64,000 bases of DNA. Source: Leptolyngbyaceae cyanobacterium. Its GTDB lineage: Bacteria; Cyanobacteriota; Cyanobacteriia; Phormidesmidales; Phormidesmidaceae. Below, piece after piece: positions 10,155-59,402 of this stretch. Made by a program: the position numbers and the translations under genes. The notes under the pieces were generated by a model, which worked only from the letters and a program-made list of their open reading frames with translations, was not told the DNA's origin and did not search any database. The stretch spans positions 2,720,001 through 2,784,000 of the forward strand of contig CBDHHL010000032.1 of NCBI GenBank assembly GCA_965263355.1, written 5' to 3'. Within the stretch, counting starts at the first letter, position 1, and every line of letters starts with the position of its first letter.

Positions 10155-10185
10155 AGCCTTCAATTAATATCGGGACATTCTAGAT

Positions 10186-17807: not shown

Positions 17808-18530
17808 GCGCGACTCGAAGTCGTTCGGGGGAGTTGGAGAGACTCCCAAATGACTCTCCCCGCCAGTGTTCAGGCGGATGTCCGCCTCGGAATGTTCGAC
17901 CAGTAATGGGAGGGCAGCATCAGCAGACGAGGTTAAATGTCGCAGTATCTTCTGAGCCAACAAGAGGGTGCAGGCTAGGGCAAGATTGCTAAGGATAACG
18001 CAAGTGAATCCTTGATGAGGCTTCGTTAATGTGAGTTCTCGAAATGGCTGATACGAGAATTTTGGAGCATATGGGGGTTGGTAGCGTCTAAATACCAATC
18101 AAGAACACCCCGCTCTCGGAGTAAAGAGGAATCCTAAAGCAATCATATCTCCACCCCGTGCGGAACGAGGAAACCCCGATAGAGTCCTGAAAATACTTTA
18201 TTTTCCAGGTAAGCGGAGGGCAACCAAAGCTGAACTCTCTAGCGGGCACAGGATATCCCAAGAAGCGAAAGCTGCCAGCCGAAAAACCGGAATTCATCAG
18301 ATAGGGCATTTGCCAACCTGAAACTCGTGGGATAGGTGATGGACGATGAAACTTAACTGATTGGGAAAAGTTAGGTGCAAGCTTCGGCTTGTAAACGTAA
18401 CCATCAGGACAATCTGAAAAGGTTGTTAAGAATCGGAAAAACTGAATTTCAAGACATTGCTTGATATACAGTGAAAGTTGTACGTACGGTTCTGAACGGG
18501 ATATATTTAAAACCTGCTTCCTTACCCGAC
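17808..18530 (+). mobile_element. ORF-less group II intron, copy 1 (deletions in the 3' part including DV/DVI)
   Basis: Near-identical to 18531-19298; starts GCGCGAC, ends CCTTACCCGAC. Confidence 0.8.
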
Positions 18531-19298
18531 GCGCGACTCGAAGTCGTTCGGGGGAGTTGGAGAGACTCCCAAATGACTCTCCCCGCCAGTGTTCAGGCGG
18601 ATGTCCGCCTCGGAATGTTCGACCAGTAATGGGAGGGCAGCATCAGCAGACGAGGTTAAATGTCGCAGTATCTTCTGAGCCAACAAGAGGGTGCAGGCTA
18701 GGGCAAGATTGCTAAGGATAACGCAAGTGAATCCTTGATGAGGCTTCGTTAATGTGAGTTCTCGAAATGGCTGATACGAGAATTTTGGAGCATATGGGGG
18801 TTGGTAGCGTCTAAATGCCAATCAAGAACATCCCGCTCTCGGAGTAAAGAGGAATCCTAAAGCAATCATATCTCCACCCCGTGCGGAACGAGGAAACCCC
18901 GATAGAGTCCTGAAAATACTTTATTTTCCAGGTAAGCGGAGGGCAACCAAAGCTGAACTCTCTAGCGGGCACAGGATATCCCAAGAAGCGAAAGCTGCCA
19001 GCCGAAAGGCAACCGGAATTCATAACGGGGCAGATAGGGCATTTGCCCAACCTGAAAGGGGGCTGACGTGGGATAGGTGATGGACTTGAATGAAGGTGAG
19101 ATGAAACTTAACTGATTGGGAAAAGTTAGGTGCAAGCTTCGGCTTGTAAACGTAACCATCAGGACAATCTGAAAAGGTTGTTAAGAATCGGAAAAACTGA
19201 ATTTCAAGACATTGCTTGAGCCGTATACAGTGAAAGTTGTACGTACGGTTCTGAGGGGAGGAAGCGGGATATATTTAAAACCTGCTTCCTTACCCGAC
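18531..19298 (+). mobile_element. ORF-less group II intron, copy 2 (intact DV/DVI)
   Basis: Domain V GAGCCGTATACAGTGAAAGTTGTACGTACGGTTC (19218-19251, AGC triad, GAAA loop); DVI and 3' end ACCCGAC; no RT ORF. Confidence 0.9.
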
Positions 19299-19323: not shown

Positions 19324-20190
19324 GTGAGAACCAATCATCCAACCCGACATCAGGTGAAAAGAATTGTACGAAAAGCAGCCCAGAAGATCCTAGGCTTTGA
19401 GCCAGCATTGCCGGCGTTAGAAGCCAAAGTAGCAACCAGCATCTCCGATAATCAACGATACCCCCAAGCCTGTCTTCGAGCTGCAAATGACTATCGACTC
19501 TTTAATTCATTTAGGCAGAGTCATGATTACACACAGATTCTTGAGCATGTCTCCCATGATCAAGGGGCTGCATATCTGGATGAGATAAAGAGATGGCCTG
19601 ACGTGTTTAGCGCACTTCCTGATATAGCCCATAACGATGATTACGGCGGGCCTGTTCTTCATTCTTATCCTGGAATCGCTCCGATATCTCCCAGCACACT
19701 TAGATATGCCAAAGTCTTGTGTGACTTATATAGCTTGTTTGGCTCTCTGGATAACTTTCATATTGCTGAGATTGGCGTTGGCTACGGAGGGCAATGCCGT
19801 GCCATAAATTCAACATCATCGCCAAGTAGTTACACACTTATTGACTTGCAGCCAGTTCTTCAGCTTTCACAGAGATACTTGGACTACTACATCTTGAATT
19901 CACAGCTAGTTTATTCAACCATGAACCAGCTGGCAACCCATGAATATGACTTACTGATTAGCAATTATGCCTTCACCGAGCTTCCAAGGGCAGTTCAGGA
20001 TGTTTATCTCTCTAGGGTCGTTCTGCCTTCGATTCGTGGGTATATTACATATAACCAGATATCTCCAGACTCGTTTATGTCCTATACATCAGATGAGCTG
20101 CTTGAGATGATTCCAGGCTCGGCCAGAGTCGACGAGGTTCCTCTCACTCATCCCATGAACTGTATAATTGTCTGGGGCCAGAATGGCTAA
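19324..20190 (+). CDS. Putative sugar O-methyltransferase, gene cassette
   Basis: SAM motif 'IAEIGVGYGG', 'YTLIDL', 'DLLISNYAFTEL'; stop TAA lies inside the attC R'' GGCTAAC. Confidence 0.8.
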   Translation: MRTNHPTRHQVKRIVRKAAQKILGFEPALPALEAKVATSISDNQRYPQACLRAANDYRLFNSFRQSHDYTQILEHVSHDQGAAYLDEIKRWPDVFSALPDIAHNDDYGGPVLHSYPGIAPISPSTLRYAKVLCDLYSLFGSLDNFHIAEIGVGYGGQCRAINSTSSPSSYTLIDLQPVLQLSQRYLDYYILNSQLVYSTMNQLATHEYDLLISNYAFTELPRAVQDVYLSRVVLPSIRGYITYNQISPDSFMSYTSDELLEMIPGSARVDEVPLTHPMNCIIVWGQNG

Positions 20191-20468
20191 CATAGGCCCT
20201 GAGGCGGACGAGGTCAATAGCAAATGCTAAAATTCTTTTTCTGCTTTAGCTTTAGCGCGGATTCAGACGTTCAAAATTGACCTAATAGTCAGGTGTTCAG
20301 GGAGACTGAACCTGCGCTATTAGATGGGGCTGCGTTGCTGAATGATCATTGATACGGGTTAGCTGTTCATAAGATATTTCTCCAAGTGACTGCATAGAGT
20401 GCTCGATCTTGTTTTGGTTGTTACTGTTTTTATTGCTTGTTTTCAAGTGCAATTTGTTCTTCTTGCAC

Positions 20469-21752
20469 TTATTGTTTAGGTTGTTGTTGAACGCCTAATA
20501 GCTTTACTAGTGGTGATTTTTTACGTCTCAGTGCAGCCAGATATTTCTCCTCGTCATAGGGTACACCATCTTGCCAACAACGCCAGAGAATTCTCCCCCA
20601 CTTATAGGCCAAGGCTCGAATCGCTTTTTGATGTGACTTACCCTTTAGTCGTTGTTGTTGATAAAACGCTTGTGACCAAACCGAGCGAGGCCTGGCATGA
20701 GCAACCCACTCGACAAAGGTTTGTCTTAGAAAGATGGGGCAAGACCAACGCCAATGAACCCATCGCTTTTTGCCACTCTCTTCTTTGACTGGCGCGATGC
20801 CAATGTAACTCAAAAAAGACTGAGCGCAATTAAAGCGAGTTCGGTCTTCACCAAAGGCCGCTAACAATCGTGGCGCTAAATGAGGCCCAGCCCCTGGCAA
20901 TGCCTTAAAAAGTTCTGCATCCGGCAGCGATTCAAATAACGAGGCAATTTGACGCTCAAACACAATCAATTGCGACAAGACTACTTTCAATAAAGCGACT
21001 AAGCCTTGCATTAACGCTTGGGCTGGAATGGTGATAGCGTCGTCTCGCGTCAAGGGTGGCCCAGCGTCTTGAATTTGCTGAGTTCGCCGTTGAATCGTGG
21101 TTTTGCGAATGATGTGATGGCTACGAAAGAAGTCTCTCAAGACATCAGCTGTAGCAGCTTGAGCCTCTTGTAAATTGGGAAACTGTTCAAGGAATTCACA
21201 AAACGCAATGGTGTCTTTATCTTCAAACCAGTCGAGCACTTGAGGAAAATAGGATTTGAGTGCGGCGGTGATCCGATTCGTCAGCCGGACCTTCTCACCC
21301 ACTAACATGCGACGGGACTCAACCCATTGTCTCAATGCACGATGCTTCGGACAACCTGATGTCCAGATATCAAGTTTTTCACCATGTTTTTGCATCAATT
21401 CGACGATCAGTTTGGCATCGATGGGATCCGATTTGGCCCGCGAGGGCTGAAACGCTTTGCGATAGTTCGCGACCGTTCGAGGATTAACGGGCACCAGCAC
21501 CAAATTCTCGTATTGACATAGGCCATAAAGGAGGGGGCCGCGTTTCTGCTCCAACCCAACCAGCAACTTGGACTCTCCATAGGTTTTTCGTAAGCGATTG
21601 ACCCAATCTGCAATGGATTGGGGCTTGGATTGAATCGTGCAATGCTCCCAGGTTTCGTTCTGGCAGTCATAGAGCGCAATATCATGTTTACGATCTGCCC
21701 AGTCAATCCCGATATAAGCCGCATATGCTGTTGGACTTTGATTGAGTTTCAT
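20469..21752 (-). CDS. IS110 family transposase/recombinase
   Basis: DEDD: 'IGIDW', 'GLEQ', 'AKSDPIDA'; 'LPGAGPHLAPRLL'; catalytic Ser motif 'EESGK'. Confidence 0.95.
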   Translation of the reverse strand: MKLNQSPTAYAAYIGIDWADRKHDIALYDCQNETWEHCTIQSKPQSIADWVNRLRKTYGESKLLVGLEQKRGPLLYGLCQYENLVLVPVNPRTVANYRKAFQPSRAKSDPIDAKLIVELMQKHGEKLDIWTSGCPKHRALRQWVESRRMLVGEKVRLTNRITAALKSYFPQVLDWFEDKDTIAFCEFLEQFPNLQEAQAATADVLRDFFRSHHIIRKTTIQRRTQQIQDAGPPLTRDDAITIPAQALMQGLVALLKVVLSQLIVFERQIASLFESLPDAELFKALPGAGPHLAPRLLAAFGEDRTRFNCAQSFLSYIGIAPVKEESGKKRWVHWRWSCPIFLRQTFVEWVAHARPRSVWSQAFYQQQRLKGKSHQKAIRALAYKWGRILWRCWQDGVPYDEEKYLAALRRKKSPLVKLLGVQQQPKQ

Positions 21753-21789
21753 TGTGCTAAATTGAGGGTGTTTTTGTTTGACGGAGAGT

Positions 21790-22080
21790 CTGCCACCAGT
21801 CGCCTTGCGAAGTGATTATGGAAAGGGTTATTTCCCTGCTCCCTGAGGATTCGTTGGGCAGCGATTGGACTGGCTTGAAGGGCGATTCGATATGTTAGTA
21901 GTCATCTTCTGACTGGCGCTGCATAGTCGTCCCCCCAAGCTAGCAGATTCTCTCCTTTCTTGACTCTATGCTTTTTTCCAGATTTAGAACATCTAAAGGG
22001 AGGAGCGATACGATATGTTAGTAGACATCTATACTGTCGTCCAATGCATAGTCGTCTCCTCCCATTTTTCTATGCTCGTC
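21790..22080 (-). ncRNA. Predicted bridge RNA with two target loops and one donor loop
   Basis: Stem-internal loop-stem units at about 21998-22063, 21872-21941 and 21807-21854; loop 7-mers match attC and the element junction. Confidence 0.75.
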
Positions 22081-22260
22081 CCCCCATAATCCAGATGCAG
22101 AAGACGGGAGTATGGGCTGGCTTCACTGCCGAGATTCTGGCCCGCTTCTGATCTGGAGCGTTAGGCTGCATCCCATACAGAATCCAGTTCCCTACTGACT
22201 CCTCACTTCTGACTTCTCGCATCGAGAAACCGTCTCGCTTTATATTAATACCCTTGAAGC

Positions 22261-25200
22261 TTATTCCTCAGGGCAAGCTTCACGAATTGCCGCACGTACA
22301 GCATTCGCAAGTAGCTGAACTTGAGGAGATTTCATTATCCTATAGTGATTACCTGGAATATGAACAATACCAAACTCTCCTGTAAGCACTGTGTCCCAGC
22401 CCCGATCATCGGTTTCCTCCTCTGCAGAGCAGAGTATCACTCGACCACCATAGGGTTGCACCTGATATCGTGCTAATGCCGTCTGATTAGCTTTGAAGAT
22501 GCGGAATAGATAGGCCATTTGCGTAGGCGTCATTTCCGGTGGTAGTAAGTTCATCCCCTGGGCAACGGCAAAGAGGTGTTCCAGCTGAGCATTAGGTGCG
22601 AGTTTTGCCAGTTTCAATCGATCTAACGACAGCTCACTATCAAACAAACCATTTAAATCAGTGATTAAAGACTGTAAATCTGCCGTGCCAATTTCCTCTG
22701 ATGTCGCCGATTTTGATGCCTCTATAGGGCTGGCTATTACCTGTGGCGTATAGCTATCAATCAGTACAACAAGCGCTACAGCTTCTCCGATAGATTGAAG
22801 CTGTTGAGCCATTTCTATGGCAATAACACCGCCCATTGACCATCCTGCTAAGTAATAAGGGCCATGGGGTTGAACGCTTTTTAAGGCCTTAATATAAGTC
22901 ATGGCCATCGTTTTAATTGAGTCTAAAGGCGTAACGTTATGATATGGTTCTGGTGATTGAAGACCGTACAGCGGTTGGTCTCGACCCAAATGATGGGCTA
23001 ATTCGGCGTAGCAGAAAACATTTCCACCCACTGGATGAATACAAAAGAGTAAGGGCAAAGTTCCATGGGGCTGGATCGGAACGAGGGGAGAGTGGTCTAC
23101 AATCGCATTTTGGCTGTTCAGTAGTCGAGCTTGGGCTTCAATGGTGGGATCAGTAAAGAGCACTGGCAATGGTAAATTAACTCCCAACTCTTGTTCTACT
23201 TGAGCCATTAGTCGCACCGCTAACAGGGAATGTCCCCCTAGCTCAAAGAAATCATCGTGTACTCCGACACTATCAAGGTTGAGGACTGCCGACCAAATTT
23301 GGGATAGTTGAAATTCTAAAGTGGTACGGGGTGGGGTAAAACTTACAGGAAAAGAGAGATCGACTTTAGGCCGGGGAAGAGTGCGACGATCAACTTTACC
23401 ATTGGGCGTCAAAGGTATTGCCTCCAAACGGATAAATGCACTGGGCACCATATAAAGGGGTAACTTAGTTTTAACGAATTCGCGCAACTGACCAATTGTC
23501 GATTCTCTCTTAGTGACAACATAGGCAATCAGGCGTTTATCTTCTGGGATATCTTCTCGAACAGTAACAACTGTTGAACTGACGTCTGGGTGTGTAGCTA
23601 AAACTGTTTCTATTTCTCCAAGCTCTATACGAAAACCCCGGATTTTAACTTGATTGTCAATTCGGCCCAGAAACTCAATGTTCCCATCTTGAAGATAACG
23701 TGCTTTATCTCCAGTATCATAAAGAATAGCATCTGGGTGAACACTAAAGGGATTTTGAACAAACTTCTGGGCAGTTTTTATCGGATCGTCATACCCCACA
23801 GCCAAACATTCTCCTCCAATATATAAAAAGCCAGGCACCCCTATCGGGCAGGGGGTCAGGCAAGAATCTAAGATATAATACTGTGCATTTTGGATGGGTC
23901 TGCCATAGGGAATGCTGGTTAAATTCTGATTGATAGATTCGATCCGATAATAATTCGACCAAATAGTTGCTTCGGTTGCTCCACCCAGACTGACAAGAAG
24001 AATGCTGGGAAATACTTTCTTCACCTGCTCAGGCAAGGCTACTGGAATCCAGTCACCACTCAAGAAGCCTAACCGGAGGGAACTGTTTGCTATGGATTTA
24101 GATGGCAAGAACGAAATCAATTGTTGAAGGGTTGCTGGGGTAGAATCCCAAAAGGTAATTGACTCCTCACAGAGAATATCAGCCACCTTCCGAGGATCTT
24201 GTAATTCTAAATCTGAAGCTACTCGAATTGACCCACCAGCCGCTAGCAAGCCAAAGATATCGTAAACAGATAAGTCAAAACACAAAGAGGTAACAAACAG
24301 TAGGCGATCGTCAACACTCACATTAAAAGTCTGGTTGACCCAATCAATTAAGTTGACAGCAGATCTATGACGTACGATGACGCCTTTGGGTACACCAGTA
24401 GACCCCGACGTATAGATAACATAAGCCGTATTATTCGGCATTACTGATGTTTCGGGATTTCGAGTGGACATTTGTGATAAATGCCAGTTTGTTGCCCAGT
24501 GTTTCTGTAGTACAGTCAAAGCAACTTGCTGTCTATCATTGCTTTCAGTGTTATGTTTTTTAATGATCACATCGTATCGATAGCGAAGTTCATTTTCAAA
24601 TCCCTGCTCTCGCTTAAGAACCGAAATCTCAGCAATAGGCTCTAATTGAACAGCTAAATCCCAGAAAAATTTCTCATCTACATATAGCTCACTACCCAGA
24701 TTAGTTTTCGCCTGGATAGGGTGTTCACCATCCTGATTAGACCTAAAGGCTATCAATGATTGTTCAAACTCGTCTTTGCGGCGAGCGTCCATGATATCTG
24801 ATAGCAAGATCGCTCCTCCTGGAGCTAAGCGTCTTACAGCAAGATCAAGAACGTGCTGTAAATAAAAAGCTCCTGGGAAAAACTGAACCGTACTCGCGAA
24901 GATAATAAGGTCAAAGGGGCCATCTTCAATGGAACCAATCTCATCCGCAAAAGCCGTCACGAGCTTAATAAAATTCCAATTATTCTCCCGAAGAATCTCA
25001 GCGTTACGTGCTTGAGTGATTTCTGAAGGATCAACACCAACATAGAGATCAACCTCAGGAGCAATTGCGAACATAATTTCTCCTGAACCACAGCCAATCT
25101 CTAGCACTCGTTTCCCGCTTCCAAAATATGGTTTCGCTAATCCAACAACGTGACATTTATACTCATCAACTTCGGACTCGGAAAAAGGCTGACTGGTATA

Positions 25201-28200
25201 GCTGCTAATAAATCCACCTGCCGTGACGCGATCGCTAGCCTGCTGGGCTACCCAATCCCATAACGATCGCACAGCCTTACGATCAATTTTTTCAGGATGG
25301 GGGGTGGGATCATCTATATCCAGGCAGATGACATGGGTTAGTTGTGAGTATTTCCATAGCAACTCTTGTGCAGTTCGCAGGTATTTTTGTTGGGTGATAA
25401 GACAGCTTACTGCTTGGGATGTAATAATCTTTTCTACTCGCGCAATTGGCCATTGAGGATCAAAAGGAATGTAAGCTCCACCGGCTTTTATTGCACCCAT
25501 CACGGCAGTTGGAATATTCGCAGAACGGTTCAAATAGATACCAATCTTCACTTCTGGGCCAACTCCGAGTGTTTGTAAGTAGTGTGCGAGTTGATTGGCG
25601 CGAACGTTTAGCTCCTGATAAGTCAGTTGTCTCTGATTAAACAGAATTGCCACTGCATCTGGACGCTGTTTCACTTGGGCTTCAAATAACTGATGAATGC
25701 ATTTATCCTTAGGGTAAGGGGCTTCAGTTTGATTCCATTCAACCAACAATTGGTGCCGTTCTATAGCCGTGAGCAAGGGTAGTTCTGTCACTGATTGTTG
25801 AGGGTTAGCGACAATCGCCCTCAATAGGGTCTCAAAATGCCCCACCGCTCGCTGAATCGTTGCTGTATCAAACAGGTCTTGATTATATTCCCAATAACCA
25901 ATTAGCCTATTATCCCGTTCCTCCAAGGAGAGAAACAGGTCAAACTTGGCGCGACCACTTTCCATTTGCAGCCACTCAAATCTAATTCCTGGCAGATTTA
26001 AGGGTTCCATGGGTGCATTTTGCAGGGCGAACATGACCTGAAAAAGAGGCGTATGACTGAGACTGCGTTCCGGTTGTAGTGCTTCTATTAACTGTTCAAA
26101 GGGCAAGTCTTGGTGGGCATGGGCATCTAACGCGGTTTGCCGGACTTGGGCCAAGAGTTGAGGAAAGGTCAGATTGTCGTCGAAGCGCGATCGTAACACC
26201 AACGTATTCACAAAGAAGCCAATTAATCCTTCAATTTCACTACGATTGCGGTTGGCAATGGGGGTGCCCACCAAAATATCGGTTTGACCGCTGTAGCGGT
26301 AGAGTAGGCTACTAAAAGCCGCAAACAACGTCATAAAAAGGGTTACCCCTGATTGTTGACTCAGATGTTTAAGCTGTTCCGTAAGGGTATGATCCAGTTG
26401 AAAAAAGATGCGATCGCCTTGATTAGACTGCACCGTCGGTCGAGGATAATCCGTAGGCAAGTCCAATAATGGGGGCGCATCGGCTAACTGTTGCCGCCAA
26501 TACTCCAATTGTGGCGCAAGAGATTGAGCGGTGGCAGGTTGTCGCTGCCAAGCGGCAAAGTCGGCATATTGAATGGCCAGTTCAGGTAAGGGTGAGGAGT
26601 CCCCTTCGATGAATGCTCCGTAGAGCACCTCCAATTCATGGACCAATACTCCCGTAGACCAACCATCGGTAATAATATGATGCATAGTGAGAAGCAACAT
26701 ATAGTCATCCTTCGCCAATTGCATCAACATGACCCGTAACAAGGTATCGTGAGCCAGATCAAAGGGTTGTTGTACCGCATCTTGACCCAGCTGTTGGACC
26801 TCAGCCATTTGTTGTTTTGGCTCAACATGCTGTAAATCTACTATCGGCAGTGGTAAATCTCTATGTGGCGATATTACCCGGAGCGGTTTCCCCTCAACAG
26901 ATTTGAAATTTGTTCGTAAGCTATCGTGTCGTCGGACAATTTCTAGTAGAGCTTGATGGAGTGCCTCCACATGCAGCGTCCCTGACAAACGTAAGCCCTC
27001 CTGCTCATTGTAGGCGACACTCTGGTCTTGTAATTGATCTAAAAACCAGAGACGTTGCTCAGCGAAGGATAGGGGTAAGTCTCCTTGACGGGACATCTGT
27101 TGAATCAGTGTTCGCTCTGAGGGCGTAGGTTTGGATTCGGTGTCCAGAATATCTTGGCTCAGTTGGGCGATGGTAGGAGATTCAAATAACCGATGCAGCG
27201 ACAGTTCCCGTTGGAAAACATCCCGCACTCGTGAAATTAGCTGGGTGGCTTGAATTGAATCTCCGCCCAGCATAAAAAAATTATCCAAAACCCCAATTTC
27301 GTTCAGCCCCAACACGTCGGCCCAAATATTAGCTAATAGCTCCTCCATAGGGGTCCGGGGATTCACCAGCTTGACATCTAGAACAGGACGGGAGCGATCG
27401 GGGGCTGGCAAATGCTGACGATCGACCTTACCGCTGGGGGTAAGGGGCAATTGATCGAGGACCACAAATGCCGAGGGAACCATGTAATTGGGCAGGGTTT
27501 CCGTCAGAAACTGACGCACCTGAGGAATCAGCTGATTTGTTTTCTGGCCACTGTATGGTTGGTTCGCATAGGCGTGCCAAGGTTTGGCCTTATTAGGAAT
27601 CTCACCGGGGGGCTGATCAACGGCTCCATGAGCCCTATCACCCAGGATAACGTTTGTGCCCTGCCGTACAAAGATGACATCGTAGTAGCCCTCATTGCCT
27701 TTACTATCCCAAGTGAGATGAACTTGGTACGGAATTTGATCTTGCAACGTCCACCAGACTTCCGGTTCAATGGCCTTGCTCTTGGCATCGTGTAAGGTAA
27801 TCTCTTGGCGAAGTTCCTTTACCGTTGGGGGACAATGATCCACATTTGACAATAGCGACAGGGCGATAACGTCAGACCCAATTCGGGCATTCGGCACATG
27901 GTTGACCACTAATAGGTCAGGGGTCATGTCCACTAGTTTTTGGCGGATGGCATGGATTGCCTCCTCGCCATCTTCTTCACACCAGTCCAGAAAAACAGGT
28001 GCGGTAGGTGTGGCAAATTCTTTATCGATGTGCAACACCACATCGTAACGAAATCGGGTCAGCTCATTTTGATGATATCCCCGCTTTAGGTGAATGTCTA
28101 CATGGCTAATGCGGGGCAGATAGGCCTTTAATGCTGTGAAAAACTCAGGATCAACCATCAATCGTTGTTCACGGGTGCGACGATCGCGAATACGTCTGCG

Positions 28201-30243
28201 TAGGTCTGCTACCGGGAGAGAATCTGGCGATTGATAGAGCTGCACTGAGGTATGGAACATTTCCAACAACGGTAAACTCAAAATATCTCCCAGGAAAATT
28301 TGTCCGCCTGGTTGAATTCTATCCACTGCGGTTTCAATAACTGACACCAAATAATCAATACTGGGGAAGAATTGAATCACTGAATTAGAGATAGCTGTAT
28401 CAAAGGATGTCGTCACAATCTCTCCCAGGGTATGGGCAGCAGCCTGTTGCAGAACTACAGATGCTGCAACTGAAGGTTCAAGGATTTGACCGGCCTTAAG
28501 TTGTCGCTCTAGATAGCGAATGGCCTCACCGGATAAATCTGTAGCATAGTAGTGTTGACACTTAGGTGCCATGCGAAAAAGCAGTAGCCCTGTGCCACAG
28601 CCAATTTCTAAAAGGCGCTGGGGTTGCAATGATAAGATTCGCTCTACCGTATAGTCCACCCATTCCTGTACATGATTTGGGTCCAGATCTGTGCCTGTGT
28701 AGGAGTCGTTCCAGCCGCCAATGTGAAAATCAGCATCCTGCTCCTGATCAGGTTGAATATAGGCTTCATCCCAAATTTGCCGCCATTGTTCCGTTTGTTC
28801 AACGACATCCTGAGTTGCCTTGACCTTAACCTCAGAGCCGGAAACAACATAGGCTACTAAGCGCTTTTGACCGCTGGGTTCTGCTCGCGCTGTTACAACA
28901 GCTTGGGCAATATCAGGATGTTGTAACAGGGTTGCTTCGATTTCTTCCAACTCAATGCGATAGCCCCGTATCTTAACTTGGTGATCAATACGGCCTAAAC
29001 ATTCAATGGTGCCATCGGTATGGTACCGGGCTAAATCTCCAGTTTTATAAAGGCGATCACCCTCCTCTAAATCAGCGTCCTGGGCAAAGGGACTGGGAAT
29101 AAATTTTTTAGCGGTCAACTCCGGACGATTGAGATATCCTCGAGCGACCCCTATGCCCCCAATGTGCAATTCTCCAACTTCACCAACAGCGACAGGGGTT
29201 TGATTCTCATCTAGAATGTAAGCCTGGGTATTACTAATCGTCCGCCCAATAGGGATGGTCGCATCCGCCGATTGCACCCGATGTATCGTGGCCCATACCG
29301 TAATTTCAGTAGGACCATATAAATTCCACAACGATCCCCCCTTAGGTAATAACTGGGCCGCTAGCTCTGGTGATAAGCGGTCCCCAGTAGAAATGATTTT
29401 CAAGTCACGACACCCTGACCATTTAGCATTCATGAGCATTTGCCAGGTCGCAGGGGTAGCTGACATCACTGTCACACGGTGTTGATGAATCAACTGAATT
29501 AACTGATCAGGATCTTGGGTTGCTGTTTGACTGGCCACGACCACCTTACCGCCAACGGTCAATGGACCAAGCAATTCTGGAACTGAAACGTCGAAAGAAA
29601 TGGTTGTAACTGCAATAGACGTATCCGTGTCCCTTAACCCTGGGCAAATGGCAATCGCCAATAGTAGATTCACCACGGAACGATGAGCGATCTGTACCCC
29701 CTTAGGTTTTCCGGTCGAACCAGAGGTGTAGATAATGTAGGCTAAGTTACTAGGTACAGCAGTAGAAATGGGATTAATGGGAGAATGTTGGCCGATGTGT
29801 TGTTTAGTGCTACCAAGGCAGATTAGTGTAATGTTCTTGGCAAGGTGTATCTGGACATTAGTGGCTGGCGATTGAGTTACAATAATTTTTAGACCCGCAT
29901 CTTGCACCATAAAAGCAAGGCGATCACTAGGATAGGCTGGATCTAAAGGAACATAAGTGCCACCAGCTTTCATGATGCCGAGCATCGCAACGACCATTTC
30001 TAAGGAGCGTTCAATGCAAAGTCCCACCAGTACCTCTGGACCTACCCCCAAGGATTGCAGATAATGGGCAAGTTGATTGGCCTGTTGATTTAATTCCTGA
30101 TAGGTAAGTTGCTGCTCCTCAAAAACCAGTGCCACAGCATCCGGAGCCTGCATCACTTGGGCTTCAAACATTTCATGAATGCATCGATTCCAAGATGTGC
30201 TGGTATCAGTATTGCGCATTTCTGAGGCGTTAGCTTCTTGCAT
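22261..30243 (-). CDS. Bimodular NRPS: A(MT)-T-C-A(MT)-T-TE
   Basis: YTSGSTG x2, LEIGCG x2, LGGDSI, HHIITDG, LGGHSL, GWSMGG. Confidence 0.95.
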   Translation of the reverse strand: MQEANASEMRNTDTSTSWNRCIHEMFEAQVMQAPDAVALVFEEQQLTYQELNQQANQLAHYLQSLGVGPEVLVGLCIERSLEMVVAMLGIMKAGGTYVPLDPAYPSDRLAFMVQDAGLKIIVTQSPATNVQIHLAKNITLICLGSTKQHIGQHSPINPISTAVPSNLAYIIYTSGSTGKPKGVQIAHRSVVNLLLAIAICPGLRDTDTSIAVTTISFDVSVPELLGPLTVGGKVVVASQTATQDPDQLIQLIHQHRVTVMSATPATWQMLMNAKWSGCRDLKIISTGDRLSPELAAQLLPKGGSLWNLYGPTEITVWATIHRVQSADATIPIGRTISNTQAYILDENQTPVAVGEVGELHIGGIGVARGYLNRPELTAKKFIPSPFAQDADLEEGDRLYKTGDLARYHTDGTIECLGRIDHQVKIRGYRIELEEIEATLLQHPDIAQAVVTARAEPSGQKRLVAYVVSGSEVKVKATQDVVEQTEQWRQIWDEAYIQPDQEQDADFHIGGWNDSYTGTDLDPNHVQEWVDYTVERILSLQPQRLLEIGCGTGLLLFRMAPKCQHYYATDLSGEAIRYLERQLKAGQILEPSVAASVVLQQAAAHTLGEIVTTSFDTAISNSVIQFFPSIDYLVSVIETAVDRIQPGGQIFLGDILSLPLLEMFHTSVQLYQSPDSLPVADLRRRIRDRRTREQRLMVDPEFFTALKAYLPRISHVDIHLKRGYHQNELTRFRYDVVLHIDKEFATPTAPVFLDWCEEDGEEAIHAIRQKLVDMTPDLLVVNHVPNARIGSDVIALSLLSNVDHCPPTVKELRQEITLHDAKSKAIEPEVWWTLQDQIPYQVHLTWDSKGNEGYYDVIFVRQGTNVILGDRAHGAVDQPPGEIPNKAKPWHAYANQPYSGQKTNQLIPQVRQFLTETLPNYMVPSAFVVLDQLPLTPSGKVDRQHLPAPDRSRPVLDVKLVNPRTPMEELLANIWADVLGLNEIGVLDNFFMLGGDSIQATQLISRVRDVFQRELSLHRLFESPTIAQLSQDILDTESKPTPSERTLIQQMSRQGDLPLSFAEQRLWFLDQLQDQSVAYNEQEGLRLSGTLHVEALHQALLEIVRRHDSLRTNFKSVEGKPLRVISPHRDLPLPIVDLQHVEPKQQMAEVQQLGQDAVQQPFDLAHDTLLRVMLMQLAKDDYMLLLTMHHIITDGWSTGVLVHELEVLYGAFIEGDSSPLPELAIQYADFAAWQRQPATAQSLAPQLEYWRQQLADAPPLLDLPTDYPRPTVQSNQGDRIFFQLDHTLTEQLKHLSQQSGVTLFMTLFAAFSSLLYRYSGQTDILVGTPIANRNRSEIEGLIGFFVNTLVLRSRFDDNLTFPQLLAQVRQTALDAHAHQDLPFEQLIEALQPERSLSHTPLFQVMFALQNAPMEPLNLPGIRFEWLQMESGRAKFDLFLSLEERDNRLIGYWEYNQDLFDTATIQRAVGHFETLLRAIVANPQQSVTELPLLTAIERHQLLVEWNQTEAPYPKDKCIHQLFEAQVKQRPDAVAILFNQRQLTYQELNVRANQLAHYLQTLGVGPEVKIGIYLNRSANIPTAVMGAIKAGGAYIPFDPQWPIARVEKIITSQAVSCLITQQKYLRTAQELLWKYSQLTHVICLDIDDPTPHPEKIDRKAVRSLWDWVAQQASDRVTAGGFISSYTSQPFSESEVDEYKCHVVGLAKPYFGSGKRVLEIGCGSGEIMFAIAPEVDLYVGVDPSEITQARNAEILRENNWNFIKLVTAFADEIGSIEDGPFDLIIFASTVQFFPGAFYLQHVLDLAVRRLAPGGAILLSDIMDARRKDEFEQSLIAFRSNQDGEHPIQAKTNLGSELYVDEKFFWDLAVQLEPIAEISVLKREQGFENELRYRYDVIIKKHNTESNDRQQVALTVLQKHWATNWHLSQMSTRNPETSVMPNNTAYVIYTSGSTGVPKGVIVRHRSAVNLIDWVNQTFNVSVDDRLLFVTSLCFDLSVYDIFGLLAAGGSIRVASDLELQDPRKVADILCEESITFWDSTPATLQQLISFLPSKSIANSSLRLGFLSGDWIPVALPEQVKKVFPSILLVSLGGATEATIWSNYYRIESINQNLTSIPYGRPIQNAQYYILDSCLTPCPIGVPGFLYIGGECLAVGYDDPIKTAQKFVQNPFSVHPDAILYDTGDKARYLQDGNIEFLGRIDNQVKIRGFRIELGEIETVLATHPDVSSTVVTVREDIPEDKRLIAYVVTKRESTIGQLREFVKTKLPLYMVPSAFIRLEAIPLTPNGKVDRRTLPRPKVDLSFPVSFTPPRTTLEFQLSQIWSAVLNLDSVGVHDDFFELGGHSLLAVRLMAQVEQELGVNLPLPVLFTDPTIEAQARLLNSQNAIVDHSPLVPIQPHGTLPLLFCIHPVGGNVFCYAELAHHLGRDQPLYGLQSPEPYHNVTPLDSIKTMAMTYIKALKSVQPHGPYYLAGWSMGGVIAIEMAQQLQSIGEAVALVVLIDSYTPQVIASPIEASKSATSEEIGTADLQSLITDLNGLFDSELSLDRLKLAKLAPNAQLEHLFAVAQGMNLLPPEMTPTQMAYLFRIFKANQTALARYQVQPYGGRVILCSAEEETDDRGWDTVLTGEFGIVHIPGNHYRIMKSPQVQLLANAVRAAIREACPEE

Positions 30244-30644
30244 ATCCTGTACATCTAGTTACTGCAGTATCCTATACTAGGGGATTAGGAGTATGAAGAG
30301 TGTTTTTCATCACTGCATAAAAAAAGGATACAAGACGTCGCCAAAGCACCGTCAAAGACAGGCGGAGATGCCTAACATAGTCCCTGAGGCGGACGAGGTC
30401 AATAGCAAAGGCTAAACTTCTTTTTCTAGTTAAGCTTGAGTCTGTATTCAGACATGCAGGATTAACCTGATACTCAGTTGTTCAGGGAGGAGATTGTTCT
30501 CTCTCAGAGAGGGCTGCTTTGCTGTATGACCGTGAATACGGGTTAGCTGTTCATCGGATATTGCTCCAAGTGATTACATCGAGTGCTCGATCTTGTTGTT
30601 GTAGTTGTAGTAGTTGTTGTTATCTGCCTTTAAAGTATTACTTG

Positions 30645-31988
30645 TTATTTTTGTGATTGTTGTTTAGGTTGTTGTTGAACGCCCAATAACTTTGCTAGTG
30701 GGGACTTTTTGCGTCTCAGTACAGCTATGTATTTTTCTTCATCATAAGGGACACCATCTTGCCAACAGCGCCAGAGAATTCTTCCCCACTTATAGGCCAA
30801 GGCACGAATCGCTTTAGGATGACTTTTACCTGATTGCTTCTGCTGTAGATAAAAGGCTTGGGACCAAGTCGAATGTCGACGCGCTTGATCGACCCATTCA
30901 ACAAAGGTTTGTCTGAGGAAAATTGGACATGACCAACGCCAATGAACCCAGCACTTTTTGCCGCTTTCCTCCTTGACAGGGGCAATACCGATATAGCTCA
31001 TAAAGGCCTGAGCCGACGTAAAGCGCGTGCGGTCTTCGCCAAAGGCGACTAACAGTCGTGGCGCTAGATGCGGTCCGGCTCCCGGTAAGGCCTGAAATAA
31101 CTCGGCATCTGGCAATGACTCAAACAGGTTAGCAATCTGTTGGTTAAATTCAGTTAATTGTTGTAAAACAACCTTAAGCAGAGTGATTAGACTTAAAGTC
31201 AGTGTTTTAGCCGGTATCACAATGGCGTCATCCTCAGTCAGCGGTGGGCCTGCGTCTTTGATTTGCTGAATCCTACGCTGAATCGTCGTCCGTCGAACAA
31301 CATGATGGCGATGGAAAAACTGAGTGATTGTTTCAGGGGTCGCTGCTTGGGCCGCTTTGACATCGTCGAACTGCTCAATAAACTCACAAAAGACCTGCGT
31401 ATCTTTATCTCTAAACCAATCAAGAACTTGAGGAAAATAGGATTTGAGTGATGCGGTGATACGGTTAGTCAAACGCACCTTTTCGCCCACTAACATCCGA
31501 CGCGATTCTACCCATTGTCTGAGGGCACGATGTTCAGGGCACCCTGCCACCCAAGCCTTTAGTTTATTGCCATGCTTACGCATTAACTCCACCAGAATAC
31601 GGGCATCTACGGGGTCGGATTTGGCTCGTGATGGCTGAAACGCTTTTCGATAGTTGGCCACCGTTCTGGGATTAATGGGAAACAGCACTAAATTGTCATA
31701 CTGACACAGCGCATAGAGTAGAGGCCCTCGCTGTTGTTCAAGAGCAACCGCAATTTTGCCAGGACCATACCGTTCTCGGAGTTGTGTGACCCAATCCAGA
31801 ATAGCTTGAGGATGGTTTTGAATAATACTATTTTTCCAGGTGTCTGTTGCACAGTCATATACCGCAATGTCATTTTTTCGGTCAGCCCAGTCAATGCCCA
31901 CATAGGCCACATAGTCAATCGACTCGATGGCCTTAGGCATAGGTGTTTCTGAAGCTGAGTCTGTAGTTATGGTTGGGGCTATTGTCAT
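30645..31988 (-). CDS. IS110 family transposase/recombinase (diverged paralog of 20469-21752)
   Basis: 'VGIDW', 'ALEQ', 'AKSDPVDA', 'EESGK'. Confidence 0.95.
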   Translation of the reverse strand: MTIAPTITTDSASETPMPKAIESIDYVAYVGIDWADRKNDIAVYDCATDTWKNSIIQNHPQAILDWVTQLRERYGPGKIAVALEQQRGPLLYALCQYDNLVLFPINPRTVANYRKAFQPSRAKSDPVDARILVELMRKHGNKLKAWVAGCPEHRALRQWVESRRMLVGEKVRLTNRITASLKSYFPQVLDWFRDKDTQVFCEFIEQFDDVKAAQAATPETITQFFHRHHVVRRTTIQRRIQQIKDAGPPLTEDDAIVIPAKTLTLSLITLLKVVLQQLTEFNQQIANLFESLPDAELFQALPGAGPHLAPRLLVAFGEDRTRFTSAQAFMSYIGIAPVKEESGKKCWVHWRWSCPIFLRQTFVEWVDQARRHSTWSQAFYLQQKQSGKSHPKAIRALAYKWGRILWRCWQDGVPYDEEKYIAVLRRKKSPLAKLLGVQQQPKQQSQK

Positions 31989-32029
31989 TGTGTTAGATTA
32001 GAAGCCAATTTGTTTAACAGGGGTACGTC

Positions 32030-32310
32030 TGCTACCTACTTGAAGAGCGAAAAGATTATGGAAGCGATTGAATCCCCTTCCCTGAGAGTTCGTTTAAGAC
32101 AAGTAGGACAAAGACCAGAGGCGAGGCGATATGTTAGTAGTCATTGACTGACGTGCGTTGGATAGTCGTCCTCTAGTCCTAGCAGACAAGCCCCATTTTT
32201 TGACTTTACGCTTTTCTTGACAGTTGGGATGAGTGAAGATGAGGAGCGATGCGATATGTTAGTAGACATGCAGGCTGTCGCTCGTTGCATAGTCGTCTCC
32301 TCGGTTCGTC
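32030..32310 (-). ncRNA. Predicted bridge RNA with two target loops and one donor loop
   Basis: Units at about 32241-32302, 32118-32173 and 32047-32093 with the same scaffold as element 1 but different variable guides. Confidence 0.75.
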
Positions 32311-32440
32311 CCCCATAACTGCGTCGGTGCGGACGGAACCAAAGTTATTGCTGAGGATTTAAGGTTATCTGCCGCCGCACAACTTCATCGTTAGCCCAAT
32401 AACCTGAAAAGCAGCTTCACCAGGGAAAAAAGACGCATTA

Positions 32441-34015
32441 ATGGCGAAGAAAACGAAATCAACAAAACAGCAAAAATCCTTTGAGCAAAATCTTTGGGAC
32501 ACCGCCGATAAGCTGCGCGGCACGGTGGAATCTTCTGAGTACAAGCATGTGGTCCTCAGTCTGATCTTCCTGAAATTCGTCAGCGATAAATTCGAGACCC
32601 AGCGCCAGAAGCTCAAGGACGAGGGCATGGGCGACCACCTAGACATGGTCGAGTTCTACGCCAAGGATAATGTCTTCTACCTACCCGAGGCGGCCCGCTG
32701 GTCTACGATCCAAGCGCAATCGAAGCAGGATGATATCGCCCTGCGCATTGATACTGCCCTACATACGGTGGAAAAGACGAATAAGGCGCTGCGCGGTGCG
32801 TTGCCGGATAACTATTTCTCCCGTTTGGGCCTGGATACGGCGAAGCTGGCTTCGTTGATCGATTCCATCAGCGATATCGACACGGTGGCGGACAAAGAAG
32901 AAGACGTGGTGGGCCGGGTCTACGAATATTTTCTCGGCAAGTTCGCGGCGACGGAGGGCAAGGGCGGCGGCGAGTTTTATACCCCTAAGTGTGTGGTTAA
33001 TCTGAACGCGGAGATGATTGAACCTTACCGGGGCAAGATCTACGACCCCTGTTGTGGTTCGGGCGGTATGTTTGTGCAGTCGGTTAAGTTTGTGCAGAGC
33101 CATCATGGCAACCAGAAGGATATTTCGATTTACGGTCAGGAACAGACGGGTACGACCTACAAGCTGGCCAAGATGAACCTGGCAATTCGGGGGATTGCGG
33201 GCAATTTGGGCGAGGTGCCTGCGGATACGTTCTTCAAGGATCAGCATCCGGATCTAAAGGCGGACTTCATCATGGCGAATCCGCCGTTTAACCTGAAGCA
33301 ATGGCGGGCGGATGATGAACTTACGGATGATCCGCGCTGGGCAGGTTATGAGACGCCGCCCACGGGCAATGCCAACTATGCCTGGATTTTGCACATGGTC
33401 AGCAAGCTTTCGGAGAACGGTGTTGCTGGCTTTGTGCTGGCCAATGGTTCGATGAGTACGAACACAAAGGGGGAGGGTGAGATCCGCCAGAAGCTGATCG
33501 AGAACGATCGCGTTGATTGCATGATCGCGCTGCCGGGCCAGCTTTTTTACACGACTCAGATTCCGGTTTGCCTTTGGTTTTTGACGAAGAATAAGCGGGC
33601 GCAGACGGTCACCAGCCACAGCGAAAGTAACTATCGCGATCGCCAGGGCGAAACCCTATTCATTGATGCTCGCAATATGGGCAGCATGGTCGATCGCACC
33701 CACAAGGAACTAACGGCGGCGGATATTGCCACCATCGCCCGTACTTACCATGCTTGGCGGGGGGAGGCGAAGGATGGAGCCTATGAAGACCAGCCGGGGT
33801 TCTGCAAGGCGGCGACGTTGGCGGATATTAAGGCGAATGACTATGTGCTGACGCCGGGGCGGTATGTGGGGGCGGCGGCGCTGGAGGATGATGGGGTGCC
33901 GTTTGAGGTGAAGATGGGGGAGCTGACGCAGCGGTTGTATGGGCAGATGCGGGAAGCGGAGAAGTTGGATGGGGTGATTCGGAAGAATTTGGAGGCGTTG
34001 GGCTATGGGGAGTAG
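32441..34015 (+). CDS. hsdM: Type I R-M methyltransferase subunit
   Basis: 'GEFYTP', 'YDPCCGSGGM', 'ANPPFN'. Confidence 0.95.
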   Translation: MAKKTKSTKQQKSFEQNLWDTADKLRGTVESSEYKHVVLSLIFLKFVSDKFETQRQKLKDEGMGDHLDMVEFYAKDNVFYLPEAARWSTIQAQSKQDDIALRIDTALHTVEKTNKALRGALPDNYFSRLGLDTAKLASLIDSISDIDTVADKEEDVVGRVYEYFLGKFAATEGKGGGEFYTPKCVVNLNAEMIEPYRGKIYDPCCGSGGMFVQSVKFVQSHHGNQKDISIYGQEQTGTTYKLAKMNLAIRGIAGNLGEVPADTFFKDQHPDLKADFIMANPPFNLKQWRADDELTDDPRWAGYETPPTGNANYAWILHMVSKLSENGVAGFVLANGSMSTNTKGEGEIRQKLIENDRVDCMIALPGQLFYTTQIPVCLWFLTKNKRAQTVTSHSESNYRDRQGETLFIDARNMGSMVDRTHKELTAADIATIARTYHAWRGEAKDGAYEDQPGFCKAATLADIKANDYVLTPGRYVGAAALEDDGVPFEVKMGELTQRLYGQMREAEKLDGVIRKNLEALGYGE

Positions 34016-35087
34016 GAAAAGCTCAAAGCTCCAAAAGGGTCAAGGCGCAGACTTACCTGAAACCTCACAACTGGTGCAGGATATCAGACAACTCATTGAT
34101 GGAACCCGTGCGGGGGTAGCAGCTACAGTGAATGCGGGCTTGACCCTGCTGTATTGGCGTGTTGGCGAACGGATTCGCTGTGAAGTGCTCTTGGAAGAAC
34201 GCGCTGAATACGGCCAGAAGATTTTGCCGACACTGTCTGCAAAATTAACGAAGGATTACGGAAGAGGATGGAGTGAGCGTAATCTGGCCTATATGGTTCG
34301 TTTTGTTGAAGTATTTCCACAGATTGAGATTTTGCAGACGCTATGTGCAAATTTGAGCTGGAGCCATTTCAAAGACATTATCTACATTGATGACCCACTG
34401 AAGCGTGAGTTCTATGCGGAGATGTGCCGGGTCGAAGGTTGGAGTGTCCGAACGTTACGGCAAAAAATTGATGGGATGCTCTATGAGCGCACGGCGATCT
34501 CAAAGCAACCTGATGAGGTGATTCAGCATGAGCTAAAGGAACTGAAGGAGGCTGACAAGCTTTCTCCGAATCTGGTCTTTCGTGATCCTTACTTTCTGGA
34601 TTTTCTGGGGCTGAAGGATCGCTACCTAGAGAAGGATTTGGAAGATGCGATTTTGCGAGAGCTGGAAAGCTTTCTGCTGGAGCTGGGCAGTGGGTTTGCG
34701 TTTCTGGCGCGGCAACGGCGTATTCAACTGGATAATGATGACTACTATATCGACCTGCTGTTTTATCATCGCCGCTTAAATCGGCTGATTGCCATCGATC
34801 TGAAGCTGGGGGATTTTAAGGCGGAATATAAGGGGCAGATGGAGCTGTATCTGCGTTGGCTGAGTAAGTATGAAAAGCAAGCGGGGGAGAATGAACCGCT
34901 GGGGCTGATTCTCTGTGCGGGTAAAAAGCAGGAGCTGGTGGAACTGCTGGAGCTAGACCAAGCGGGTATTCATGTGGCGGAGTATTTCACGGAGTTGCCG
35001 CCGAGAAAGTTGCTGGAGGATAAGCTGCATCAAGCCATTGAGAATGCTAGGGAGCGGATTGAAAATAGGGGGAGTGAAGATGAATAA
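34005..35087 (+). CDS. YhcG/DUF1016 PD-(D/E)xK nuclease-domain protein
   Basis: 'LSWSHF', 'RDPYFLDFL', 'LELGSGFAF', 'YIDLLFYHR', 'GQMELYL'. Confidence 0.9.
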   Translation: MGSRKSSKLQKGQGADLPETSQLVQDIRQLIDGTRAGVAATVNAGLTLLYWRVGERIRCEVLLEERAEYGQKILPTLSAKLTKDYGRGWSERNLAYMVRFVEVFPQIEILQTLCANLSWSHFKDIIYIDDPLKREFYAEMCRVEGWSVRTLRQKIDGMLYERTAISKQPDEVIQHELKELKEADKLSPNLVFRDPYFLDFLGLKDRYLEKDLEDAILRELESFLLELGSGFAFLARQRRIQLDNDDYYIDLLFYHRRLNRLIAIDLKLGDFKAEYKGQMELYLRWLSKYEKQAGENEPLGLILCAGKKQELVELLELDQAGIHVAEYFTELPPRKLLEDKLHQAIENARERIENRGSEDE

Positions 35088-35179
35088 GCGGTTAGAACTG
35101 ACCCAGACGCTGTATCGGCAGAGGTTGGAGTCGGAGCGGTTGGATGGGGTGATTAAGGAGAGTTTGGAGGGGTTGGGTT

Positions 35180-36094
35180 ATGGAAGGTAATTGGCACCAA
35201 AGCACTCTCGGAAACATCGCCAGCCGAGAAGGTAATGGCCTGGTTGATGGTCCTTTCGGCTCAAATCTTCCTGCATCTTCCTACACAGAAACTGGAGTGC
35301 CAGTTATCAGGGGCAGCAACCTGACTCTAGGGTTAGGTCGTTTCAATGCAGAGTCATTTGTTTTCGTCTCAGAAGAAACCTCTCAAAGACTATCTCGAAG
35401 TTTGTGCAAACCACAGGACATTGTTTTCACTAAAAAGGGAACTCTTGGGCAAACTGGATTGATTCCTGAGAATGGCTATGCGCAGTACTTGATTTCTTCA
35501 AATCAAATGAAATTGAGAGTAGACAAGGCCTTAGCCGATCCTCTTTATGTCTATTATTATGTTTCTTCTCCTCAAAGCGTTCAAAAAATATTACGTGACT
35601 CAGAAGCTACTGGTGTTCCTAAAACGAACCTCGCCTACCTGAAAGACTTTCCAATTCAACTACCATCCCTTTCTAAACAAAAAGCGATCGCCCACATCCT
35701 CGGCTCCCTAGACGACAAAATCGAACTCAACCGCCAGATGAACGAAACCCTAGAGGCCATGGCCCAGGCATTGTTCAAGAGTTGGTTTGTGGACTTTGAC
35801 CCGGTGATTGACAACGCCCTGGCCGCAGGCAACCCCATCCCCGAAGCGCTCCAGGCTAAGGCAGCAGCACGGCAGGCCCTGGGCGACAAGCGCAAGCCCC
35901 TGCCCGAGGCGATTCAGCAGCAGTTTCCCAGTGCGTTTGAGTATAGCGATGAGCTGAGCTGGATTCCAAAGGGTTGGAAAGTTTTACCTTTCGCTAGCCT
36001 TGCGCACTTAAACCCAGAATCATGGACAAAAAAGAATGCTCCAGATAAGGTCTTTTATGTTGATTTATCCAACACTAAGAATGGAAAAAAATAA
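35180..36094 (+). pseudogene. hsdS: Type I R-M specificity subunit truncated by ISL3
   Basis: One TRD plus 'QKAIAHILGSLDDKIELNRQMNETLEAMAQALFKSWFVDF'; second TRD cut at the IS end. Confidence 0.85.
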
Positions 36095-40543: not shown

Positions 40544-40627
40544 AGCTAACATTGCGTTGCAACGGCGGAGCATAAGCAGTTGATCAAAGGCTAAAGTTAC
40601 TACCGCCGTTGAACTTCGCCGTTAGCC
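40544..40627 (+). other. Intact attC site
   Basis: AGCTAAC-attgc-GTTGCAAC-GGCGG...CCGCC-GTTGAAC-ttcgcc-GTTAGCC. Confidence 0.85.
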
Positions 40628-50639: not shown

Positions 50640-50726
50640 AGCTAACCAGTCGCTGCACCGGAACGCTCAAACATGGTTACTTCAGTCGCGAAGGTTATCT
50701 ATGTCCGGTGAGCTTAGTCGCTAGGT
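50640..50726 (+). other. attC site with a GCTAG right core
   Basis: AGCTAAC-cagtc-GCTGCACC-GGA...TCC-GGTGAGC-ttagtc-GCTAGGT. Confidence 0.75.
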
Positions 50727-59332: not shown

Positions 59333-59402
59333 AAGTCTGCGCTGTTGATGGGGCTATATTCTCCAATCCCTTTAATCTCCAGATGATATCTCTTCATCTC
59401 CC

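What the first reader, a model, noticed from the sequence alone, without database searches (positions are those of the whole stretch)
32030..32317. Second IS110 keeps the three-loop scaffold but has different variable guides
Seen: constant guides are identical to element 1 (ATGTTAG at 32131 and 32256; donor ATTATGG at 32055 and TCCCTGA at 32079), while stems differ yet still pair. The variable segments are TGCGTTGG (32154-32161), a 7/8 match to its own insertion site TGCGTCGG (32320-32327), and CGTTGCA (32283-32289). Across the two elements, four L''-type guides occur (aatgca, gctgca, gttgga, gttgca), mirroring the L'' variants of the attC sites in this window (GATGCA, GCTGCA, GTCGGT, GTTGCA). 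Inference: the guides diversify to cover a polymorphic target family. This is internal comparative support for the multi-loop model.
Basis: partly seen in the sequence, partly recalled or inferred. Interest (0 to 1): 0.88.

Follow-up and report, generated by a model that had tools for sequence, protein, structure and literature searches.

The report
Bridge RNA with two target loops
This jumping gene of cyanobacteria carries a guide RNA with two different target-reading loops instead of the usual one, and across many relatives either loop appears to choose the landing site among the variable recombination sites of integron gene cassettes.

Summary
All seven quoted motifs are at the stated coordinates. 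The stretch is the minus-strand bridge RNA of a 1,941-bp IS110-group element inserted in an attC site. Its order is target loop 1, target loop 2, donor loop, transposase. The layout marks a cyanobacterial clade whose closest outside relatives have one target loop. Right guides are constant. The 7-nt left guides differ between the two loops in 17 of 17 distinct pairs. Over 52 insertion sites the better loop matches 5.94/7 against 5.29 when guides are permuted. Each loop adds information given the other (p about 1e-4), and loop 1 fits better at 25 sites, loop 2 at 23, with 4 ties. Another copy of this element sits in an attC matching loop 1 at 7/7, while the window copy fits loop 2. Specificity is loose: 3 of 52 sites match at 4/7 or worse, and some are not attC. 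Nothing was tested at the bench. Seven literature searches found no two-target-loop bridge RNA; this scan noted one earlier in another genome (e1-7963192). Verdict: new variant of a known kind.

The parts
30377..32317 (-). Element 2, IS110-group insertion sequence, 1,941 bp (ends ambiguous by 1 nt)
   Evidence: ends placed by homology to element 1, whose empty site was seen
30645..31988 (-). DEDD recombinase, 447 aa; motifs GIDW, LEQ, KSDPVD, ESGK present
   Evidence: Pfam PF01548 + PF02371; NF033542 above cut-off; hits IS621 and ISCro4 chains; motif positions
32241..32302 (-). Target-binding loop 1 (5', next to the left end)
32283..32289 (-). Left target guide of loop 1 (RNA sense TGCAACG)
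   Evidence: 7/7 to the empty attC at 40544 and to another copy's site in run X5; 4/7 to this copy's site
32256..32262 (-). Right target guide of loop 1 (CTAACAT), complementary to core plus GTTAG of attC R''
   Evidence: unchanged in 35 of 38 distinct loop sets
32103..32183 (-). Target-binding loop 2 with long outer stem
   Evidence: 9 of 11 outer-stem pairs show changes on both sides
32156..32162 (-). Left target guide of loop 2 (TCCAACG)
   Evidence: 5/7 to this copy's site, 7/8 over positions 2-9
32131..32137 (-). Right target guide of loop 2 (CTAACAT)
   Evidence: unchanged in 36 of 38
32048..32092 (-). Donor-binding loop: left guide 32079-32085, right guide 32055-32061
   Evidence: matches the element's own ends; in a single-loop relative, guide and end change together (L169/L198)
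30397..30402 (-). -35 hexamer TTGACC; a -10 hexamer forms 17 nt away only when the ends are joined
   Evidence: spacing 17 in 8 of 8 elements checked; activity inferred
30370..30376 (+). R'' box of the interrupted attC
32318..32396 (+). Rest of the interrupted attC: spacer 32318-32322, L'' 32323-32330, L' 32377-32383, R' 32390-32396
20192..22088 (-). Element 1, 1,897 bp; transposase 20469-21752 (76% identical); left guides 22042-22048 and 21917-21923
   Evidence: empty site in run X1, joint 20191 to 22089
40544..40627 (+). Empty attC, perfect match to element 2 loop 1 (left guide 7/7, right guide 7/7)
50640..50726 (+). Empty, partly degenerate attC; 7/7 to element 1 loop 2, but lacks the T that the right guide reads next to R''

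Best explanation
The element is an IS110-group bridge recombinase whose RNA has two alternative target-binding loops and one donor loop. Shown from sequence: the layout, the guide-to-end and guide-to-site complementarity, the insertion point at the edge of the attC R'' box, and the association of both left guides with insertion sites. Inferred from IS621-type work: the element forms a circle, the joined ends make a promoter, and the transcript carries loop 1, loop 2 and the donor loop. One recombinase dimer binds the donor loop and pairs with a dimer bound to either target loop. Both loops share the right guide for the invariant R'' box. Their 7-nt left guides read the last six bases of the variable L'' box plus one spacer base and differ at 1-4 positions (mostly 2, 5, 6), so one element covers two classes of attC. 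About two unpaired bases beside the core let the guide fit 4-, 5- or 6-nt spacers. Pairing is tolerant, so the loops bias site choice rather than fix it.
For: 52 distinct site/guide cases: loop 1 alone 5.04 vs 4.55 permuted, loop 2 alone 5.08 vs 4.66, best 5.94 vs 5.29; permuting only loop 2 p=1e-4, only loop 1 p=5e-5; 25 vs 23 sites, 4 ties. With one site per guide pair (17 pairs, 100 draws) the median p is 0.001 and 0.0045. Same element, different loops: in G625 three copies fit loop 2 at 6/7 (3/7 for loop 1), one fits loop 1 at 6/7 (4/7 for loop 2), one fits neither. Element 2 in run X5 sits at a 7/7 loop-1 site; an element 1 copy in run X3 sits at an 8/8 loop-1 site. Both right guides are conserved across a clade with proteins down to about 70% identity. 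L082 has a broken loop-1 right guide and sits at a 7/7 loop-2 site. Split loops work in IS622 (10.1101/2025.05.14.653916, passages).
Against: No expression, processing or activity data; no circle junction was seen in contigs. The 7-nt, three-register score was chosen after seeing the first loci. In the 10 cases added later only loop 2 was significant (p=0.015; loop 1 p=0.18). Cases are related and share hosts, so p-values are optimistic. Single-loop relatives score 5.48/7 (n=33), not clearly different from best-of-two (p=0.089) or from loop 1 alone (p=0.073; loop 2 alone p=0.023). 12 of 52 sites match at 5/7 or less. The window RNA alone does not fold better than shuffles (z=-0.66), and loop-1 helices are mostly invariant (1 of 8 and 1 of 4 pairs change on both sides).
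Confidence: 0.72

Rival explanations
1. Only one loop (the one next to the donor loop) acts in cis; the other is a spare copy, and its apparent matches come from RNAs of related elements acting in trans or from host attC make-up.
For: The donor guides are shared across the family, so trans action is plausible. In the 10 later cases loop 1 was not significant. One lineage lost a loop (L142).
Against: Loop 1 adds information given loop 2 over all 52 cases and in 100 of 100 one-per-pair draws. Its right guide is kept in 35 of 38. Non-attC sites fit loop 1 at 7/7 (L015) and 6/7 (L197).
Confidence: 0.12
2. Site choice rests mainly on the constant right guide and the attC hairpin; the left guides are a minor filter, and the duplication raises target-loop dosage rather than range.
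For: The gain over permuted guides is only about 0.65 of 7 bases. A target stem-loop adds specificity in ISPpu10 (10.64898/2026.03.19.712850, abstract). Perfectly matched attC sites stay empty in the window.
Against: The two left guides are never identical (0 of 17 pairs), which pure dosage does not predict. Insertions occur at sites with no attC partner arm.
Confidence: 0.1
3. The second loop has another job, such as damping excision through unproductive loop-loop complexes or controlling transposase expression, and keeps an attC-like guide only to bind the element's own flanks.
For: Two target-loop dimers bind IS621 junctions without recombining (PMC13626964, passages). Target-loop-only RNA is the main species in CazIS110-1 (10.1101/2025.10.25.684509, passages).
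Against: It does not explain why the better-fitting loop is split 25 to 23, or why the same guide appears in loop 1 of some elements and loop 2 of others.
Confidence: 0.06

Closest known systems
IS621 bridge RNA and recombinase (IS110 group; Durrant et al. 2024, PMC11208160; passages and section 12 read)
   Same: DEDD plus Tnp domains; RNA upstream of the gene; left guide before right guide; donor loop matching joined ends; junction promoter.
   Different: Two target loops instead of one; the left guides stop about 2 nt short of the core; only one base (T) is shared at all junctions; protein about 430-450 aa against 326.
IS1111-attC elements ISKpn4, ISPst6, ISPa25 (Siddiquee et al. 2024, PMC11187229; passages and section 13 read)
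   Same: RNA-guided insertion at one end of attC sites.
   Different: Those have a downstream non-coding region, 11-13 bp subterminal repeats and reversed guide order, and one target guide pair; they target 'certain' attC sites.
IS110 locus with several predicted donor loops (10.64898/2026.08.14.744561, passages read; its Fig. S9 not seen)
   Same: More than one guide loop of one kind in an element.
   Different: Donor loops in a single locus, not a conserved pair of target loops across a clade.
Single-loop cyanobacterial relatives found here (L025, L093, L094, L106, L198, L215 and others)
   Same: Same loop scaffold, same right guide, attC targets; mean match 5.48/7.
   Different: About 62 nt with a plain hairpin in place of loop 1; they branch outside the two-loop group.

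Membership tests
IS110 family bridge recombinase | DEDD RuvC-like domain plus Tnp domain with catalytic serine | tested here: met
   motifs located (their catalytic role is recalled, not tested)
IS110 family bridge recombinase | Non-coding RNA region with target loop complementary to both target strands | tested here: met
IS110 family bridge recombinase | Donor loop complementary to the joined element ends | tested here: met
   joint change of guide and end in L169/L198
IS110 family bridge recombinase | Circular intermediate with active junction promoter; RNA expressed and bound | tested here: inconclusive
   promoter spacing 17 in 8 of 8; no circle joint in contigs of 4 runs, which drop rare forms; no RNA run laid
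IS110 family bridge recombinase | Precise insertion with a recoverable empty site | tested here: met
   element 1 empty site in run X1; not seen for element 2
IS110 group (not IS1111) | Bridge RNA upstream of the gene; bottom-strand guide 5' of top-strand guide | tested here: met
   definitions
Canonical two-loop bridge RNA | One target loop and one donor loop | tested here: not met
   two target loops
IS1111-attC group | Guide RNA downstream of the gene | tested here: not met
   guides are upstream; the 270-nt downstream region is shared by only 5 other loci
IS1111-attC group | 11-13 bp near-perfect subterminal inverted repeats | tested here: not met
   only a short imperfect repeat around GACG
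IS1111-attC group | Insertion at a fixed position in attC | tested here: met
   always directly before the R'' box on the bottom strand; right flank GTTAG in 27 of 39 distinct flanks, GTTAT in 6

The most novel reading that the evidence does not exclude
A natural multiplexed bridge RNA: a two-guide array whose loops are released or used as separate modules with one shared donor loop, are kept different by selection to track the host's attC variants, and exchange guides between positions (the same 7-mers occur in loop 1 of some elements and loop 2 of others). It would be a ready scaffold for one recombinase aimed at several sites.
Probability: 0.4. Interest if true: 0.8.

Novelty: new variant of a known kind. 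Interest (0 to 1): 0.62.

Why it matters
Bridge RNAs are described as having one target loop and one donor loop. A clade that has kept two different target loops shows that multiplexing evolved naturally and suggests why: integron attC sites share one box and vary in the next. It makes testable how an RNA-guided element copes with a polymorphic target, whether loops act in cis or as separate pieces, and whether multi-target bridge RNAs can be engineered. It also adds an IS110-group lineage to the elements that target attC, known from the IS1111 group.

Tried and rejected
Rfam has no family for the RNA. No match in viral contigs; only 44-nt matches in 4 plasmids. Idea that loop 1 serves 6-nt-spacer and loop 2 serves 5-nt-spacer attC sites: rejected, both loops fit all registers (loop 1: 1, 12, 9 at 4, 5, 6 nt; loop 2: 4, 8, 5). 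Pattern counts of intact attC in five genomes did not exceed their reversed controls and were used only to see that 5- and 6-nt spacers both occur. Loop 2 of the four G441 copies could not be read because contigs end. No third target loop was called in any locus parsed. No long internal repeat upstream of 23 more distant relatives. The careful tree did not finish (quick tree only), and single origin was not tested with test_one_clade. No integron integrase among the 35 of 88 window ORFs scanned. No structure prediction was run.

Full report
Observation. All seven quoted motifs are exact. The scaffold that holds them occurs four times in the window, twice in each of two IS110 elements, and never in 100 shuffles. 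Both transposase genes are on the minus strand (20469-21752 and 30645-31988; 76% identical) and carry PF01548 and PF02371. They pass the NCBIfam IS110 RNA-guided transposase cut-off; element 2's protein hits IS621 and ISCro4 structures weakly. The flagged stretch is therefore the upstream non-coding region and reads as RNA on the minus strand.

Anatomy. Element 2 spans 30377-32317. It interrupts an attC site directly after the R'' box (30370-30376); spacer, L'', L' and R' continue at 32318-32396. Element 1 (20192-22088) sits at the same position of another attC, and a contig of run X1 has that site empty, joining 20191 to 22089 with 2 nt of ambiguity. X1 may be the source organism and is not independent of the window. 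In X1 the two elements have depths 53.9 and 103.9 against 15.5 for the flank, which suggests several copies each, although the tool warns that depth is not copy number. The RNA runs: loop 1 (32302-32241), linker, loop 2 (32183-32103), donor loop (32092-32048), gene. Each target loop has a 10-nt variable 5' strand, a 4-bp hairpin and a constant 3' strand complementary to the core and GTTAG. The donor loop matches the two element ends. Joining the ends puts a -35 and a -10 hexamer 17 nt apart in 8 of 8 elements checked.

Structure. The window RNA alone folds no better than shuffles (z -0.66). On 33 aligned regions (33 of the 40 available; near-duplicates left out), the three-hairpin model pairs 95.5% of cells, with 14 of 34 pairs changed on both sides; no shuffle of 500 reached this and slid controls pair 41-50%. 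The structure was drawn from these sequences, so that test leans in its favour. Compensation is concentrated in the outer stem of loop 2 (9 of 11 pairs); loop 1 is mostly invariant.

Family. Protein and pattern searches gave many cyanobacterial relatives. A FastTree tree of 53 proteins puts the two-loop elements in one group of 33 rows (local support 87; inner group of 31 rows, 100), with two single-loop cyanobacterial groups and single-loop proteobacterial elements outside it. One nested element (L142) has lost a loop. The quick IQ-TREE run left the G022 elements unresolved, and single origin was not formally tested. The searches need conserved motifs, so decayed copies are under-sampled. Right guides are intact in 35 of 38 loop-1 and 36 of 38 loop-2 sets. 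Left guides vary mainly at positions 2, 5 and 6, and differ between the loops in 17 of 17 distinct pairs.

Test of the two-guide model. For each two-loop element with a readable left junction I scored the first 7 guide bases against the flank in the best of three registers. Left out were duplicates, elements without a readable junction (L004, L006, L017), elements with one loop not called (L020, L082) and contig-end fragments. The first 42 cases gave best-of-two 5.93 against 5.30 permuted. With 10 cases found later, 52 cases gave: loop 1 5.04 vs 4.55, loop 2 5.08 vs 4.66, best 5.94 vs 5.29; permuting loop 2 alone p=1e-4, loop 1 alone p=5e-5; loop 1 better at 25, loop 2 at 23, 4 ties. One site per guide pair gave median p 0.001 and 0.0045 over 100 draws. 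Against this: the 10 later cases support loop 2 (p=0.015) but not loop 1 (p=0.18); the score was chosen after seeing data; cases are related; and 33 single-loop cases average 5.48, between one loop and best-of-two without clear separation. Among the better loops, identity is 29-37 of 39 at positions 1-7, 21 at position 8 and 6-9 at positions 9-10 (partly circular).

Same element, different sites. In G625 five copies share one guide pair: three fit loop 2 at 6/7, one fits loop 1 at 6/7, one fits neither (4/7). In G022 (8 copies, 6 distinct left flanks) two fit loop 2 at 6/7, one at 5/7, one ties at 5/7, one non-attC site fits loop 1 at 5/7, and three copies share a flank inside a DDE transposase gene with a good right match and 3/7 on the left. 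In run X5 a contig of element 2 with unchanged loops continues into an attC that matches loop 1 at 7/7, whereas the window copy fits loop 2; in run X3 an element 1 copy continues into an attC matching loop 1 at 8/8 (single low-depth or short contig ends, 43 further loose ends not shown). In the window, two empty attC sites match element 2 loop 1 and element 1 loop 2 at 7/7. Only 31 of 49 sites passed a strict attC partner-arm test; several failures look like diverged attC, others (L015, L118, L120, L185, L197) do not. So the loops bias site choice; they do not fix it. Half-match insertion is reported for IS621 (10.64898/2026.08.31.748434, abstract only).

Mechanism. Shown: layout, complementarity, insertion point, empty site, statistical link of both guides to sites. 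Inferred from IS621 and IS622 work: circle, junction promoter, one dimer per loop, and a productive complex of the donor-loop dimer with either target-loop dimer; split loops are active in IS622 (10.1101/2025.05.14.653916, passages). The right guide pairs better with the joined product than with most targets, because the base before the shared T is A in the donor but T, G or A in targets (28, 11, 3 of 42). This resembles the handshake effect described in PMC13626964 (passages); that reading is inference.

Known and new. Durrant et al. (PMC11208160; passages and section 12) describe diverse two-function RNAs and multi-branched donor loops, not repeated target loops. Siddiquee et al. (PMC11187229; passages and section 13) cover attC targeting by IS1111 members. 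A 2026 survey of 32,190 bridge RNAs (10.64898/2026.10.21.760802; passages and section 2.4) mentions deviant structures in Fig. S12, which I could not see. One preprint reports several donor loops in one locus (10.64898/2026.08.14.744561, passages). Searches found no report of two target loops. Supplements were not read, bioRxiv supplements are closed, and patents and most subscription papers are not in the library, so prior description cannot be excluded. Post and Hall 2009 was seen only as a reference entry. This scan noted a two-target-loop bridge RNA in another genome (e1-7963192); I did not check it, and sequence look-ups found no look-alike of this element.

Verdict. A real feature and a member of the IS110 group, differing from the canonical bridge RNA by a second, differently programmed target loop kept across a clade. 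New variant of a known kind; interest 0.62.

Noticed in passing
window 17808-19298: Two tandem ORF-less group II intron copies (Rfam hit 19216-19298; the first has deletions) inserted right after a GTTAGGC box at 17801-17807 and before a methyltransferase cassette (19324-20190, TIGR04371). The upstream repeats may be an attI-like site; no integrase was found nearby.
   Followed up: partly
G022 loci L128, L130, L132: The element sits in a DDE transposase gene at the codons just before the ADRG motif; L131 and one L132 copy appear to have exchanged right flanks, suggesting recombination between copies.
   Followed up: partly
L169/L198, L204, L215 and relatives: Single-loop subfamily with an altered left donor guide; in L169/L198 the element end carries the matching change.
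   Followed up: partly
window 30403-30644 and 20218-20468: A conserved downstream non-coding region of about 270 nt shared by both elements and only L001, L017, L156, L157 and L160; role unknown.
   Followed up: partly
L026-L048: Proteobacterial relatives (41-50% identity) have one target loop and insert into a different repeated site; their left guide reaches the core as in IS621.
   Followed up: no
window 32441-36094 and 48948-50129: Type I restriction-modification genes follow the attC of element 2; a second, split methyltransferase lies before the degenerate attC at 50640.
   Followed up: no
window 22261-30243 and 57470-63980: An NRPS gene lies between the two elements, and a PKS cluster at the window's end.
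   Followed up: no
window 10070-10160: Array of 17-nt direct repeats upstream of an ion-channel gene.
   Followed up: no
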